Shown: positions 6,307-8,585 of the stretch, one piece after another
How the letters are laid out: the number at the start of each line of letters is the position of its first letter
Position numbering within the stretch: the stretch's first letter is position 1
Assembly: GCA_029250665.1 (NCBI GenBank)
Contig: JAQXEV010000053.1
Coordinates: 1 to 47,861 of the forward strand
From: Candidatus Thalassarchaeaceae archaeon
Lineage (GTDB): Archaea > Thermoplasmatota > Poseidoniia > Poseidoniales > Thalassarchaeaceae
DNA: 47,861 nucleotides
Direction: 5' to 3'
Notes under the pieces: model-generated
Told to the model about the DNA's origin: nothing
Databases searched by the model: none
What the model saw: only the letters and a program-made list of their open reading frames with translations
Program-made: the position numbers and the translations under genes

Positions 6307-6323
6307 TTCGTGGAGTTAATTCC

Positions 6324-6689
6324 ATGGTAGTAAAGGTGAATCTTTTTCTTCGTATCGGAAGGGCAATCGTGCTTCGCTTCGGGAAGAACACTCCTTTTCT
6401 TCGCTCTGCAGTTAGATATTATTACATCATAAAAAAGAAAGCATCCCGTTCCACCTTTGCTATTTTTTCGTTCAGTTTCTTCACCCTCGCCGTCATTGAT
6501 GCCTTAGACCCAGAATTCACAGGCACGGAAGGCTTCTTCTCTATGGTTTGGGGTATCGCAGGGGCGGTCTTTCTTCTTCTCCATTATCTGGTTATTGTTG
6601 GCTTGGTTGGAACGCCGGCAGATGATATGGTAGAGTGGTGGAATGATCCGAATCATCCCATTAATCAGACGATGGATGACCACGCATAG
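6324..6689 (+). CDS. hypothetical small membrane protein; the 5' half is doubtful
   Basis: Open frame in the AT-rich islet. The C-terminal half has two hydrophobic segments (FAIFSFSFFTLAVI, MVWGIAGAVFLLLHYLVIVGLVG). The N-terminal part overlaps T-tracts that may be the pyrG terminator. An alternative start is the ATG at 6543. I recognise no homology. Confidence 0.3.
   Translation: MVVKVNLFLRIGRAIVLRFGKNTPFLRSAVRYYYIIKKKASRSTFAIFSFSFFTLAVIDALDPEFTGTEGFFSMVWGIAGAVFLLLHYLVIVGLVGTPADDMVEWWNDPNHPINQTMDDHA
6343..6350 (+). terminator. oligo-T tract, candidate archaeal terminator for pyrG
   Basis: TTTTTCTT lies ~40 nt downstream of the pyrG stop. Further T-runs occur near 6394-6400 and 6464-6469. 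Confidence 0.3.
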
Positions 6690-6740
6690 GGCACTCTATG
6701 TCCGGCCCTGCGTCATCTGCTTAGTCCAAGCAGAAAGTAC
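6689..6740 (+). repeat. left terminal inverted repeat
   Basis: GGGCACTCTATGTCCGGCCC-tgcgtcatc-TGCTTAGTCCAAGCAGAAAGTAC. The inner module contains the hairpin TGCTT-N5-AAGCA. A third partial copy of the outer module (GTACTCTATGTCC) follows at 6737-6749. Confidence 0.8.
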
Positions 6741-6809
6741 TCTATGTCCATGCTTAATCGATGCCACAGAGGGGCCGATGAGACTGGGGCCTCTAGGATT
6801 CTGTTCGTC

Positions 6810-7262
6810 CTATTCCCCTTGCCTTAGGAACTCCTTTTTCTTCTGTTCTTTCACAGAAAGAAGTTCACGAAGTTTATCCCATTCATCGGGATAAATATCA
6901 GTGAGAATCTGCCTATATTTCGGATTTTTGTGCTTAATCGAAGCATACCAGAATTTGTCTGGTAGGATATCGTCACAGTTCTCGAAGAACTGTTTTAATT
7001 GATTTCTTGCGCATTGGCAAGAACTGCATATAATTTCGAGGTTCGACATATTGTCAGCCCCTCCGTGCTTTTCGTCAACTGGTTGGACGTGCTCGATTGT
7101 TACCGAACAGGGGTCTTTACCGGGTGCTGAAGCACTTGTCATATTAGTGCCCTCGCACTGTGGACATTCTTCGCCGACATGCGAGTCACGAAAGGCAAGA
7201 ACTTTCGGTTTTCGAGAGAACTTGCGAGATTGTCTTTGTTTTGTTTTTGTCTTTATAGTCAT
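6810..7262 (-). CDS. HNH (His-Me finger) endonuclease, 150 aa
   Basis: CPQCEG...TIEHVQPVDEKHGGADNMSNLEIICSSCQCARN matches the HNH pattern CxxC...(D/E)H..P...GG....NL...CxxC..N. The N-terminus is Lys/Arg-rich (MTIKTKTKQRQSRKFSRKPK). AT-rich codon usage differs from the neighbouring genes. Confidence 0.8.
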   Translation of the reverse strand: MTIKTKTKQRQSRKFSRKPKVLAFRDSHVGEECPQCEGTNMTSASAPGKDPCSVTIEHVQPVDEKHGGADNMSNLEIICSSCQCARNQLKQFFENCDDILPDKFWYASIKHKNPKYRQILTDIYPDEWDKLRELLSVKEQKKKEFLRQGE

Positions 7263-7381
7263 AAATATTGACAGTTCAGAGGTTGCGTCTCTTCGCTGGC
7301 ATCATAGATACCGGCGGGCTTCGGCCCCAATGGGCAACGCTGCGCTACAGTGGAGGTTCTTGAATTAATTGAAACAAAGGG

Positions 7382-7433
7382 GTATTTTCTGCTTGGGCTA
7401 AGCAAATCATATCGGGCCGGACATACAGTACCC
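7382..7433 (-). repeat. right terminal inverted repeat
   Basis: The reverse complement reads GGGTACTGTATGTCCGGCCC-gatatgatt-TGCTTAGCCCAAGCAGAAAATAC. Against the left repeat: 18/20 in the outer module, 21/23 in the inner module, 3/9 in the linker. Confidence 0.8.
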
Positions 7434-7439
7434 ATTGAT

Positions 7440-8585
7440 TCAGTCGACAGAAATTGGTAGAACTCTAGTTGTTCTGTATCCTTGTAGCACTTTCATGTAG
7501 CGCTTGGCAGCAAACTCTGCATCCAACCCAGCATCCCCTGTCTCGATGCGTAATCGCCTCACAGTGAGTAACTTAGCGGGGGTGCAAATGCCCAGAACAG
7601 AATCAATTCCCGCAGCACTCAGCACCGCGGGTGAAAGCTGCAGATTACCACGTCCAATCAAGAAGCCTTGACCACCCATCGGTGAAAGCAGAATTGTTAC
7701 TTCACCATCATGGTCAGAAATCAACTTGAGCAGGTCAACCTCATTCAGATCAGTTCCGACCTGTTCACCACCGACACTCGCATCAATCCCAAGCAAACTC
7801 GGTGTAATCCCAACCTGATTTCCGATATTCCTGAGTGTTCCGCCTGAGCCCCATATGAGTAATCTTCCGTCCTCCATGAGCATTTCTTGAATGTGGTCAG
7901 CAAGTCCTTCGAGGACCTCCTCTTCACCGCTCGCTTCAACACGCTGTTTGGCCCCTTGCATCCATCGTGGACTCGCCGGAGTCATCGCCTCAGCATACAG
8001 CCGAACGACCCAACGCCCCTGCCGATAGACCTCCTCATCGAGGTCCAAAACCTCCGTACTCGCCAGCAATAATTCTCCATCCATCCAAGCAGAGAGCACT
8101 TCTGCCGCCGCCTTTGGAGAGGCGGCGAAACTTCCTGAATGCATCTTGACTCCGCACGGCACGCCGATGATTGGTAGGTTCTGCCTGCCGGCGGATTCGA
8201 GGGCGGCGACTATGTCGCGGGTTGTGCCATCGCCGCCTCCGTAAACGAGGATATCGATGTTAGATTCGAGTAATTGAGCAACTAAGCCAGCGGTGTCCTC
8301 AGAAGTTGTCAAGCCGGAAGAAGTGTGGATTGTGGACACCGAACCGATCTCTAAATCGCTGACAATCCAGTCGGTTCCCATCCGCCCTTCGCTGGTAATC
8401 CATTCGAGGCCTGATGGATCCTTGCGTAGCCGCGCGAAATGTGTGATAGCGATAGCAACGCGCGGTCCTGCCCGATCCTCGGCACCCTGCGCGCGTGCGA
8501 ACTCGGCCTGACCATCAGAGCCCTTCAGACCCAAGCGGCCGCCTAAGCCGGCGTCGGGATTGACCAGTAGCCCGATACGAGTCAC
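7440..8585 (-). CDS. ATP-NAD kinase family protein (COG3199/AcoX-like predicted polyphosphate/ATP NAD kinase)
   Basis: [13 protein letters not shown]..., [14 protein letters not shown] (the GGDGT motif of the NAD-kinase/diacylglycerol-kinase fold). 381 aa. Confidence 0.75.

What the first reader, a model, noticed from the sequence alone, without database searches (positions are those of the whole stretch)
6689..7433. 745-bp cassette bounded by 52-nt imperfect terminal inverted repeats whose only ORF is a 150-aa HNH nuclease
The left end (6689-6740) reads GGGCACTCTATGTCCGGCCC tgcgtcatc TGCTTAGTCCAAGCAGAAAGTAC. The reverse complement of the right end (7433-7382) reads GGGTACTGTATGTCCGGCCC gatatgatt TGCTTAGCCCAAGCAGAAAATAC. 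By hand alignment 42/52 positions match: 18/20 in the outer module, 21/23 in the inner module and 3/9 in the linker. So the repeat is bipartite, two conserved boxes joined by a free spacer, which looks like protein-binding or RNA-structure modules rather than a simple hairpin terminator. The inner box folds as TGCTT-N5-AAGCA. The only gene between the repeats is a Zn-finger HNH nuclease with a very basic N-terminus. There is no transposase, integrase or Cas gene, and I see no target-site duplication. The ends coincide with the stop codons of the flanking ORFs (TAG at 6687-6689; TGA on the complement at 7440-7442). I know of no IS family with a TIR-flanked stand-alone HNH as sole cargo. Possible explanations are a free-standing homing-endonuclease cassette, a non-autonomous element mobilised in trans, or a nuclease that recognises or is guided by its own end sequences.
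Basis: partly seen in the sequence, partly recalled or inferred. Interest (0 to 1): 0.7.

Follow-up and report, generated by a model that had tools for sequence, protein, structure and literature searches.

The report
Mobile HNH gene cassette in archaea
The inverted repeats are real, but they are two copies of a short boundary sequence that separates many small, swappable single-gene cassettes in abundant ocean archaea (Marine Group II); the HNH nuclease is one passenger, probably moved by a serine recombinase encoded elsewhere.

Summary
The 52-nt inverted repeat (6689-6740 / 7382-7433, 42/52) and the 150-aa HNH ORF are confirmed. The host is a Marine Group IIb archaeon (Thalassarchaeaceae, genus O1).

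The repeat arms are not the element's own termini. Each arm is a copy of a ~46-nt module: half-site CTSTATGTCCGG, spacer, hairpin TGCTT-N5-AAGCA, GAAAS, TA. I found 41 module copies in marine metagenome contigs, upstream of at least 8 unrelated cargo genes.

Cassettes of 0.2-1 kb are separated by dyad sites of 12 + TA + 12 bp. The same cassette occurs with different neighbours, and the same neighbour occurs with different cassettes. Breakpoints fall at the central TA. The HNH unit (6740-7428, flanked by TA on each side) occurs in at least 7 left contexts.

A small serine recombinase gene lies about 120 bp from such sites in L029 and L039. Recombinase homologues down to 59% identity carry the same motifs upstream. 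None is present in this window.

The HNH gene is best read as non-autonomous cargo. It also carries conserved, covarying 5'/3' UTR pairings of unknown function. The closest analogues are integron cassettes and pdif modules, but the sites and the candidate enzyme differ. No description was found in the searchable literature.

The parts
6324..6689 (+). 121-aa membrane-protein ORF. It is the neighbouring gene inside the variable region between pyrG and the NADK-like gene.
   Evidence: The ORF is listed. A homologue at L001:1-144 is followed by a solo half-site. The whole region is absent from the closest genome, L051.
6681..6693 (+). Degenerate R-type half-site CACGCATAGGG plus central dinucleotide CA. 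This is the outer junction of the left module. The equivalent junction in L133 has TA.
   Evidence: Sequence; comparison with L133.
6694..6739 (+). Orphan module copy, forming the left arm of the inverted repeat. It comprises half-site CTCTATGTCCGG (6694-6705), spacer (6706-6717), hairpin TGCTT-AGTCC-AAGCA (6718-6732), GAAAG, and TA (6738-6739). It points towards the 3' end of HNH.
   Evidence: The same arrangement is present in L133. Orphan inverted modules also occur in L022 and L025.
6740..7428 (-). The recurring mobile unit: the HNH cassette, made of its own module plus promoter region, structured UTRs and ORF. It is bounded by TA 7429-7430 and TA 6738-6739. Its short terminal inverted repeat is CTGTATGTCC...GGACATAGAG.
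   Evidence: The alignment of the window with L001-L004 shows homology limited to this span. The same limits hold in L005, L040, L132 and L133.
6752..6809 (-). 3' UTR carrying the 3' strands of helices A (6762-6765), B (6771-6778), C (6780-6784) and D (6790-6794).
6810..7262 (-). HNH nuclease ORF, 150 aa, with CxxC...CxxC zinc ligands, catalytic His58, a basic N-terminus and a C-terminal helical domain with no structural match.
7263..7345 (-). 5' UTR carrying the 5' strands of helices D (7278-7282), C (7287-7291), hairpin P (7294-7316), B (7321-7328) and A (7333-7336). An AT-rich stretch at 7355-7378 (CAATTAATTC in sense) is a possible archaeal TATA region; this is an inference.
7383..7430 (-). 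The cassette's own module, forming the right arm of the inverted repeat. It comprises inner TA (7383-7384), hairpin (7390-7404), spacer (7405-7413), half-site CCGGACATACAG on the + strand (7417-7428) and outer TA (7429-7430).
7431..7442 (.). Flank CCCATTGAT plus the stop codon of the NADK-like gene. Homology with the closest genome, L051, resumes at 7433.

Best explanation
The interval is one gene cassette within a hypervariable island between the convergent pyrG and NADK-like genes of a Marine Group IIb archaeon.

In this lineage, small cassettes (usually one ORF) are separated by dyad-symmetric sites of 12 bp + TA + 12 bp. The half-site after TA reads S-N-S-T-R-T-G-T-Y-C-G-G. Many cassettes begin with a ~46-nt module: half-site, spacer, hairpin TGCTT-N5-AAGCA, GAAAS, TA.

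Cassettes are gained, lost, exchanged and placed in either orientation by conservative site-specific recombination. The crossover falls at the palindromic central TA.

The enzyme is most likely a small serine recombinase (240-290 aa) encoded elsewhere in such genomes. The HNH cassette would then be non-autonomous cargo mobilised in trans. The HNH gene brings its own promoter region and a conserved UTR structure, and is probably a selfish or defence-type nuclease rather than the mobility enzyme.

Shown: the repeats, the sites, the discrete boundaries, the multiple contexts, and the adjacency of recombinase genes to sites. Inferred: that the recombinase acts on these sites, the 2-bp crossover chemistry, and the role of HNH.
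For: 1. Host and hotspot. The NADK-like gene is 94% and pyrG 98% identical to MGIIb-O1 MAG LRMED-022. The window and that genome differ exactly between 6309 and 7433. The pyrG/NADK gap ranges from 3 bp to 5.5 kb across 54 Poseidoniales genomes.

2. The module is generic. There are 41 copies in L001-L006, L022-L050, L133 and the window, all with the layout R-half | TA | module | TA | F-half. Of 32 evaluable copies, 25 are followed by a co-oriented ORF within 7-148 nt.

3. Shuffling. Seven cargo types each occur with 2-3 different left flanks. The same left flank carries the HNH cassette in L005 and a different cassette in L047. L029 and L031 share a left flank up to TA and then differ. L004 equals L002 minus a second cassette of about 0.4 kb, with the breakpoint in GGGTA|GGGAG. 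A 772-bp SAP-domain cassette is delimited by TA sites at both ends in two contexts (L028:103-874 = L038:2545-3316, 98%).

4. Sites. There are 58 R-TA-F sites in 83.6 kb of island contigs, against 1-3 in shuffles and 0 in 559 kb of Poseidoniales core loci. TA is the core in 58 sites, against 6 or fewer for any other dinucleotide. Positions 1, 3, 11 and 12 of the half-site are conserved although they were not used for selection. Site spacing is 222-983 bp.

5. L040 shows the HNH cassette inserted at the centre of a ~60-bp palindrome, so apparent terminal inverted repeats arise from split palindromes.

6. Recombinase. L029:1648-2403 and L039:2912-3640 match Pfam Resolvase (E=3.5e-32 and 1.4e-31), have a YARVSS motif, and are CcrB/XisF-like. 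Each starts about 120 bp from an R-TA-F site. In L039 the gene sits in a 3.7-kb unit bounded by two such sites. The upstream regions of homologues at 79% (L134) and 59% (L137-L139, MGIIa) contain the same GTGTCCG and (C)AAGCAGAAA/hairpin motifs. In the MGIIa copies the junction is always half-site | TA in three different contexts.

7. A 12-2-12 dyad with a 2-bp crossover is the textbook architecture of serine-recombinase crossover sites such as hix/gix, res site I and LSR att cores. A palindromic core permits both orientations (established knowledge).
Against: - No recombinase gene is present in the 47.8-kb window or in 54 related NADK loci. I could not check whether the source genome has one.
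- The recombinase-site link rests on adjacency in three loci plus shared motifs. There is no biochemical evidence.
- The island contigs were selected through the module itself, so site densities are biased upwards.
- The window's own outer junctions are degenerate: core CA at 6692-6693 and a weak half-site at 7431-7442. No site in the window reaches the score threshold, so this particular copy may be immobile now.
- One XerA-like tyrosine recombinase lies 2 kb from a module in L050.
- The origin of the orphan inverted module is not explained.
- No excised circles or inversion isoforms were observed.
Confidence: 0.55

Rival explanations
1. The HNH nuclease is itself the mobility enzyme. It would cut the TA-centred palindromes like a small dimeric restriction or homing enzyme. 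The resulting self-complementary TA ends would be re-ligated by host enzymes, moving its own cassette and others.
For: - It is a 150-aa stand-alone HNH with a zinc finger and an uncharacterised C-terminal helical domain.
- Its cassette is the most frequently recovered cargo, at 10 of 41 modules.
- A second, unrelated HNH lies at the end of the recombinase unit in L039.
- HNH restriction enzymes of this size that act on palindromes exist, for example PacI (own knowledge).
Against: - Modules and sites are far more common than HNH genes.
- HNH homologues in other MGII lineages lack the module and the sites.
- The family is tiny: 4 representatives below 1e-30 among 1.84 billion.
- No cut-and-religate cassette mechanism is known.
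- A dedicated recombinase is found next to the sites.
Confidence: 0.1
2. The cassettes are non-autonomous transposons (MITE-like) of a TA-targeting DDE transposase of the IS630/Tc1-mariner type. The half-sites would be terminal inverted repeats and the TA a target-site duplication.
For: Each unit is flanked by TA and has short imperfect terminal inverted repeats (TA|CTSTATGTCC...GGACATASSS|TA). The presence/absence of the L002/L004 cassette is compatible with a TA duplication.
Against: - No DDE transposase was found among about 100 ORF clusters from 84 kb.
- Insertions are never at a random TA. They are always between half-site-like sequences or in palindromes.
- Adjacent units share a single TA in strict tandem arrays.
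- Sites are absent from 559 kb of core genome.
Confidence: 0.08
3. The cassettes are moved by the host tyrosine recombinase XerA acting on dif-like sites, as proposed for pdif modules of Acinetobacter plasmids.
For: - An XerA-like gene (NCBIfam recomb_XerA_Arch, 196 bits against a cut-off of 220) lies 2 kb from a module in L050.
- The overall logic matches pdif modules: small modules bounded by imperfect palindromes with no enzyme gene inside (PMC9947245, PMC12907356).
Against: - The hybrid junction GGG-TA-GGG, derived from GGG-TA-CTC and CCC-TA-GGG, places the exchange at the centre. It does not place it at the edges of a 6-8-bp spacer.
- The triplets either side of TA differ between partner sites, which tyrosine recombinases tolerate poorly (established knowledge).
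- XerA is a housekeeping gene seen in only one locus.
Confidence: 0.1
4. There is no dedicated machinery. The palindromes are terminator-like or regulatory intergenic repeats, and the mosaic arises from homologous or illegitimate recombination between them. The window copy is a fixed locus.
For: - The sites lie between genes, often right at stop codons.
- The window's outer junctions are degenerate.
- Replacement-type flexible islands evolving by homologous recombination are documented in aquatic microbes (PMC4033161).
Against: - Breakpoints repeatedly coincide with the central TA.
- TA is the nearly exclusive core.
- Both orientations occur.
- Discrete units have both ends at sites.
- The motifs are conserved next to recombinase genes across MGIIa and MGIIb.
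Confidence: 0.1
5. The pair of inverted modules makes the HNH core (6740-7382) an invertible segment, flipped by a serine invertase as in the Hin/Gin switches. This would be compatible with the main model.
For: Inverted copies of a recombinase-type site flank a ~0.65-kb segment that carries a promoter and one gene. The same architecture is seen around Myb/HTH genes in L022 and L025.
Against: No opposite-orientation isoform was seen in any contig. The inner junction half-sites are weak.
Confidence: 0.07

Closest known systems
Integron gene cassettes (IntI / attC)
   Same: Both consist of arrays of small, mostly single-ORF cassettes of 0.2-1 kb. The cassettes are separated by imperfect palindromic recombination sites, shuffled between genomes, and lack an enzyme gene of their own. 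Cargo includes nucleases and defence-type genes.
   Different: The sites here are 12-TA-12 dyads (with or without a 46-nt hairpin module). They are not attC sites with R''/L''-L'/R' boxes and a GTTRRRY core. No IntI gene was found; the candidate enzyme is a serine recombinase rather than a tyrosine one. Cassettes occur in both orientations, and many carry their own upstream module.
pdif (Xer) modules of Acinetobacter plasmids (PMC9947245, PMC12907356)
   Same: Both are small gene modules bounded by pairs of short imperfect palindromes, often in inverted orientation. Both are mobilised in trans by a recombinase encoded elsewhere.
   Different: pdif sites have an 11-6-11 layout and are recognised by XerC/XerD tyrosine recombinases. 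Here the crossover maps to a central TA, and the associated gene encodes a serine recombinase. The host is an archaeon.
Serine-recombinase crossover sites (hix/gix of Hin/Gin invertases, res site I, att cores of large serine recombinases)
   Same: These are dyad-symmetric sites of about 26 bp with 12-bp arms and a 2-bp crossover. A palindromic core allows either orientation. The recombinase found here has a Resolvase catalytic domain and a partial 'Recombinase' domain (CcrB/XisF-like).
   Different: Known systems invert one segment, resolve cointegrates, or integrate one element. None is known to maintain arrays of many exchangeable single-gene cassettes. The protein is 240-290 aa and lacks the zinc-ribbon/coiled-coil part of large serine recombinases.
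Free-standing HNH homing endonuclease genes
   Same: This is a small stand-alone HNH gene with its own expression signals, found in an intergenic position, present in some genomes and absent in others.
   Different: Its boundaries coincide with generic cassette sites shared with unrelated cargo. There is no conserved homing target in a host gene. It occurs in at least 7 unrelated contexts.
IS630/Tc1-mariner MITEs
   Same: Both have TA on both sides and short terminal inverted repeats.
   Different: No transposase was found. Targets are half-site-flanked rather than any TA. The units form strict tandem arrays that share one TA.
HEARO / IscB omega-RNA (HNH gene associated with a structured RNA)
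   Same: An HNH ORF is associated with a conserved structured non-coding sequence. There is a weak NCBIfam hit to the IscB HNH domain (E=1.7e-4, 20.8 bits against a cut-off of 175).
   Different: The protein is 150 aa, with no RuvC or bridge-helix domains. The pairings enclose the ORF (5' UTR with 3' UTR) rather than forming an upstream guide RNA. There is no Rfam hit.

Membership tests
Insertion sequence / transposon with terminal inverted repeats | Transposase gene inside the element | tested here: not met
   The only supported ORF is an HNH nuclease. No DDE, HUH or other transposase was found in the window interval or in 84 kb of related contigs.
Insertion sequence / transposon with terminal inverted repeats | The inverted repeats are the element's own termini and move with it | tested here: not met
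   The left arm is absent or in direct orientation in L001, L002, L004, L005, L040 and L132. The recurring unit is 6740-7428.
Free-standing HNH homing endonuclease | HNH (beta-beta-alpha-metal) nuclease domain | tested here: met
   Pfam PF01844 E=1e-5. PHROG HNH families match. The best fold match is the Gme HNH nicking endonuclease, although weak (E=0.84).
Free-standing HNH homing endonuclease | Insertion at one conserved target sequence, with empty alleles of that same target | tested here: not met
   There are at least seven unrelated left flanks. The only shared feature is the generic half-site + TA.
Integron gene cassette | attC site with inverse core / core (RYYYAAC ... GTTRRRY) | tested here: not met
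   The site consensus is CCGGACAYASSS-TA-SNSTRTGTCCGG, with no GTTRRRY core.
Integron gene cassette | IntI-type tyrosine recombinase next to the array | tested here: not met
   The only tyrosine recombinase seen is XerA-like, 2 kb from one module. Serine recombinase genes abut the sites instead.
Integron gene cassette | Arrays of small, mostly single-ORF cassettes exchanged between genomes | tested here: met
Serine-recombinase site-specific recombination system | Dyad-symmetric crossover site with exchange at a central dinucleotide | tested here: met
   The sites are 12-TA-12. Junctions fall at TA. TA is the core in 58 sites, against 6 or fewer for any other dinucleotide. This is sequence-level evidence only.
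Serine-recombinase site-specific recombination system | Recombinase with Resolvase catalytic domain and active-site serine, encoded with the sites | tested here: inconclusive
   Met in L029, L039 and L134-L139. Not met in the window or in 54 related loci. The rest of the source genome could not be searched.
Serine-recombinase site-specific recombination system | Recombinase-dependent strand exchange at the sites | not testable with these tools
   This needs in vitro or in vivo recombination assays.
pdif / Xer modules | 28-bp sites with 11-bp arms and a 6-bp central region, cut at its edges | tested here: not met
   The arms are 12 bp around a 2-bp core, and the hybrid junction GGG-TA-GGG places the exchange at the centre.
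IS630/Tc1-mariner MITE | TA target-site duplication at otherwise unrelated targets | tested here: inconclusive
   TA flanks every unit, but all targets carry half-site-like arms.
Known RNA families (Rfam 15) | Match to a curated covariance model | tested here: not met
   There were no hits at gathering thresholds in the window. In 6600-7500 only chance-level snoRNA hits appeared, at E above 3. A 450-nt ORF inside the structure would defeat such models.

The most novel reading that the evidence does not exclude
Marine Group II archaea possess a previously undescribed integron-like gene-cassette system. It would be built on a small serine recombinase and TA-centred 12-2-12 sites, with an optional 46-nt hairpin module. 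The system would shuffle single-gene cassettes, including this HNH nuclease, and defence islands within hypervariable hotspots.

The HNH cassette additionally carries a new structured RNA that encloses its ORF. An even bolder version, not excluded, is that the HNH protein participates by nicking the sites.
Probability: 0.4. Interest if true: 0.85.

Novelty: new variant of a known kind. Interest (0 to 1): 0.72.

Why it matters
Marine Group II archaea are among the most abundant microbes of the surface ocean and are uncultured. How their flexible genome is built is largely unknown.

A cassette system with defined sites, a candidate recombinase and dozens of natural cassettes would explain hypervariable hotspots such as the pyrG/NADK junction. 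It would also explain why these regions fragment in short-read assemblies.

It would extend the 'gene cassette' principle of integrons to a different enzyme class and to another domain of life. It would also supply a compact serine recombinase with a 26-bp target as a possible tool.

The covarying UTR structure around a tiny HNH gene is a separate lead for a new cis-acting RNA.

Tried and rejected
- Extra copies in the window. No further copies of either box or of the half-site were found. This is not a dense REP-like repeat of this genome stretch.
- Viral collections. Module-pattern hits in IMG/VR are chance coding matches. No HNH or recombinase relatives were found there.
- GTDB genomes. No HNH relative was found. 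The 54 orthologous NADK loci contain neither HNH, module, sites nor recombinase.
- Known RNAs. Rfam gave nothing. By eye the UTR junctions fit neither a hammerhead core nor a bulge-helix-bulge motif.
- Structural identification of HNH. AlphaFold gave pLDDT 73. Foldseek against the PDB gave only a weak Gme-HNH hit, and the PDB sequence search gave TagI at E=0.22. The C-terminal domain remains unassigned, and PADLOC gave no hit.
- P0006-type HNH loci (L007-L016) turned out to be a single locus sampled many times, so they say nothing about mobility.
- An uninterrupted module-TA-inverted-module palindrome, which would be an 'empty' version of the window architecture, was not found.
- A recombination site at the 3' end of the recombinase gene, where homology between copies ends, was looked for and not seen.
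- Gap-0 and AT-core 'sites' are phase artefacts or coding-sequence coincidences.
Full report
OBSERVATION

The inverted repeat exists as described. Its arms are 6689-6740 and 7382-7433, 52 nt long, with 42/52 positions complementary. Each of the two conserved boxes occurs exactly twice in the 47.8-kb window, against 0.00-0.01 expected by chance. Between the arms lies one supported ORF, 6810-7262 on the minus strand, encoding 150 aa. It matches Pfam HNH (E=1e-5, above the gathering score).

The flanking genes are a 121-aa membrane-protein ORF ending at 6689 and a NAD-kinase-like gene ending at 7440. pyrG lies further left. Rfam finds nothing in the region.

HOST AND LOCUS

The NAD-kinase-like protein retrieves 54 Poseidoniales (Marine Group II) genomes. 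The best is the MGIIb-O1 MAG LRMED-022, at 94% identity for the NAD-kinase-like protein and 98% for pyrG.

Nucleotide homology between the window and that genome stops at 7433 on one side and resumes at 6309 on the other. In between, the relative carries 1572 unrelated bases with other genes and no repeat. Across the 54 genomes the gap between the convergent pyrG and NADK-like genes ranges from 3 bp to 5.5 kb. This junction is therefore a hypervariable hotspot. None of those genomes has the HNH gene or the boxes.

THE HNH CASSETTE IS MOBILE, BUT ITS LIMITS ARE NOT THE 52-NT ARMS

The HNH family is tiny. There are 7 clusters among 5.8 billion proteins, and 4 representatives below 1e-30 among 1.84 billion. 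All come from marine metagenomes on short contigs.

Aligning the window with contigs that carry the 89%-identical protein shows about 95% nucleotide identity. That identity runs only from TA|CTGTATGT... (upstream of HNH) to ...GGACATAGRG|TA (downstream). Outside these points the sequences are unrelated. In window coordinates the recurring unit is 6740-7428, with TA at 6738-6739 and 7429-7430.

Across L001-L005, L040, L132, L133 and the window, this unit has at least seven different left flanks and about six different right flanks. It follows HNH in inverted orientation only in the window and in L133. L133 encodes the identical protein but continues into a different flank. In L001 and L002 a copy follows in direct orientation and is the start of the next cassette. 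In L004, L005, L040 and L132 there is none.

THE ARMS ARE COPIES OF A GENERIC CASSETTE-BOUNDARY MODULE

One metagenome scan with the module pattern returned 29 further contigs. All 41 copies share one layout:
- a half-site CCGGACATASSS
- TA
- the module CTSTRTGTCCGGSCC-N9-TGCTTAGYYCAAGCAGAAAS
- TA
- another half-site, followed by cargo

Of 32 evaluable copies, 25 have a co-oriented ORF starting 7-148 nt downstream. The remaining evaluable copies, including the window's left arm, have no such ORF and are orphans.

Cargo is diverse. It includes SAP-domain, Myb/HTH and small membrane proteins, many proteins of unknown function, and HNH.

Dyads of half-site + TA + half-site, with or without the module, separate nearly every short ORF on these contigs. 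I counted 58 such sites in 83.6 kb, against 1-3 in shuffled sequence and none in 559 kb of Poseidoniales core loci. These contigs were selected through the module, so the density is biased upwards. Spacing between sites is 222-983 bp.

The half-site consensus after TA is S-N-S-T-R-T-G-T-Y-C-G-G. Positions 1, 3, 11 and 12 are conserved although they were not used to pick the sites. TA is the central dinucleotide in 58 sites, against 6 or fewer for any other pair. Most of those others are artefacts.

CASSETTES ARE EXCHANGED AT THE CENTRAL TA

- Seven cargo types each occur with two or three different left flanks.
- L005 and L047 share a left flank up to TA, and then carry the HNH cassette and a different cassette respectively.
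- L029 and L031 share a left flank up to TA and then differ.
- L004 equals L002 minus a second cassette of about 0.4 kb. L002 reads ...GGGTA|CTCTG...ACCCTA|GGGAG... and L004 reads ...GGGTA|GGGAG....
- A 772-bp SAP cassette is 98% identical in L028 and L038. It is delimited by TA sites at both ends, with both flanks different.
- In L040 the HNH cassette sits in the centre of a ~60-bp palindrome. This shows how insertion into a dyad creates apparent terminal inverted repeats.

The triplets next to TA stay with their own arm. The exchange is therefore central, not 6-8 bp staggered.

CANDIDATE ENZYME

Clustering the ORFs revealed a serine recombinase at L029:1648-2403 and L039:2912-3640. It has a YARVSS motif and matches Pfam Resolvase at E=3.5e-32, with a partial Recombinase domain. 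It is CcrB/XisF-like in NCBIfam and matches a PHROG integrase family at 7e-56.

Both genes start about 120 bp from a dyad site. In L039 the gene lies in a 3.7-kb unit bounded by two such sites. L031 ends in the same flank.

The family has 90 clusters below 1e-20, including one annotated from Candidatus Poseidonia alphae. In every context I retrieved it heads a methyltransferase/defence island.

The upstream regions of copies at 79% and 59% identity contain the same GTGTCCG and AAGCAGAAA/hairpin motifs. The three MGIIa copies lie in three different contexts, each with a junction of half-site|TA.

A 12-2-12 dyad with a 2-bp crossover is the standard architecture of serine-recombinase sites, and a palindromic core allows both orientations (established knowledge). 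I infer that this recombinase family acts on the sites in trans. No recombinase is encoded in the window or in the 54 related loci, and I could not search the rest of the source genome.

THE HNH GENE ITSELF

The protein has CxxC...CxxC zinc ligands and a catalytic His. The AlphaFold model is of moderate quality (pLDDT 73) and its only, weak, fold match is the Gme HNH nicking endonuclease. The closest solved sequence is the HNH domain of TagI, at E=0.22. The C-terminal ~60 aa are conserved within the family but unassigned.

The ORF is enclosed by pairings between its 5' and 3' UTRs, forming helices A-D and a hairpin P. These are conserved in HNH subtypes of 52-65% identity that lack the module. 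On a six-sequence alignment:
- 91% of cells pair, against 33-44% when the partners are slid
- six pairs show changes on both sides, against two or fewer when slid
- 7 of 500 shuffles do as well

Examples are GGGGCCGA/TCGGCCCC against ATTGAGGCCGA/TCGGCCTCAAT against CAATAAGG/CCTTATTG, and CCTCT/AGAGG against GTTCTA/TAGAAC. With only four lineages this evidence is suggestive rather than conclusive. The function is unknown; mRNA stabilisation or control of a toxic nuclease are guesses.

INTERPRETATION

The finding is a real and mobile cassette. Its 'terminal inverted repeats' are two inverted copies of a generic cassette-boundary module. The HNH nuclease is best read as cargo that is mobilised in trans.

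I considered several rivals: HNH as the cutting enzyme, TA-targeting DDE MITEs, XerA/pdif-like mobilisation, repeat-mediated homologous recombination, and an invertible-segment switch. Each is less well supported, and none is formally excluded.

NOVELTY

Full-text searches found archaeal integrons (PMC9668308), pdif modules (PMC9947245, PMC12907356) and 'Charybdis' elements of Poseidoniales (bioRxiv 10.1101/2025.08.03.668216). They found no description of TA-centred cassette arrays or of a serine-recombinase cassette system in Marine Group II. I rate this a new variant of a known kind (site-specific gene cassettes), with a different site and a different candidate enzyme class.

Noticed in passing
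window 6307-7439; L051-L104: The gap between the convergent pyrG and NADK-like genes is a hypervariable hotspot in Poseidoniales. It ranges from 3 bp to 5.5 kb in 54 genomes, with unrelated content even in a genome that is 94-98% identical (protein level) in the flanking genes.
   Followed up: partly
window 6752-6809 and 7263-7345; L007, L130, L131, L129: Conserved 5' UTR/3' UTR pairings (helices A-D and hairpin P) with compensatory changes enclose the HNH ORF. They occur also in HNH subtypes that lack the module. This may be a new cis-acting RNA.
   Followed up: partly
L029:1648-2403, L039:2912-3640, L134-L139: Small serine recombinases (CcrB/XisF-like, 228-290 aa) always head methyltransferase/defence islands. 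The islands include McrB-like, GmrSD, Z1+DUF4420, NucS_C and DUF1156+SNF2 genes. Only about 850 bp (the gene plus its upstream motifs) is shared between copies.
   Followed up: partly
L039:97-585: A second HNH nuclease (Pfam HNH 2.4e-5 plus a DUF5763 zinc finger), unrelated in sequence to the window HNH, lies at the far end of the 3.7-kb recombinase unit, next to a module.
   Followed up: partly
L022:459-1014, L025:280-873: Myb/HTH DNA-binding protein genes (134 and 132 aa) are flanked by inverted module copies. This is the same architecture as the window cassette.
   Followed up: partly
L031:8217-8266: A minimal module consists only of the hairpin (TA GTTTCTGCTTGAGTTAAGCAGAAAC TA) between two half-sites. 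This suggests that CTTTCTGCTTGG is a second kind of half-site.
   Followed up: no
L044:1387, L048:1640: The ATG inside the half-site that follows the module (GGGAATGTTC) serves as the start codon of the cargo ORF. The module would then have to supply the promoter of a leaderless mRNA.
   Followed up: no
L050:1497-2657: An XerA-like tyrosine recombinase gene lies 2 kb from a module at the contig end.
   Followed up: partly
window 6692-6693 versus L133: The outer junction of the left module has core CA in the window but TA in L133. L134 has TG at the corresponding recombinase-side junction. These may be decayed or 'locked' sites.
   Followed up: no
L037:11-80: Three tandem copies with a 23-nt period contain TATGTAGTTTCC.
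   Followed up: no
L137, L138 (Ca. Poseidonia alphae and relatives): The recombinase + methyltransferase units may be related to the 'Charybdis' proelements reported to integrate into Poseidoniales (bioRxiv 10.1101/2025.08.03.668216).
   Followed up: no
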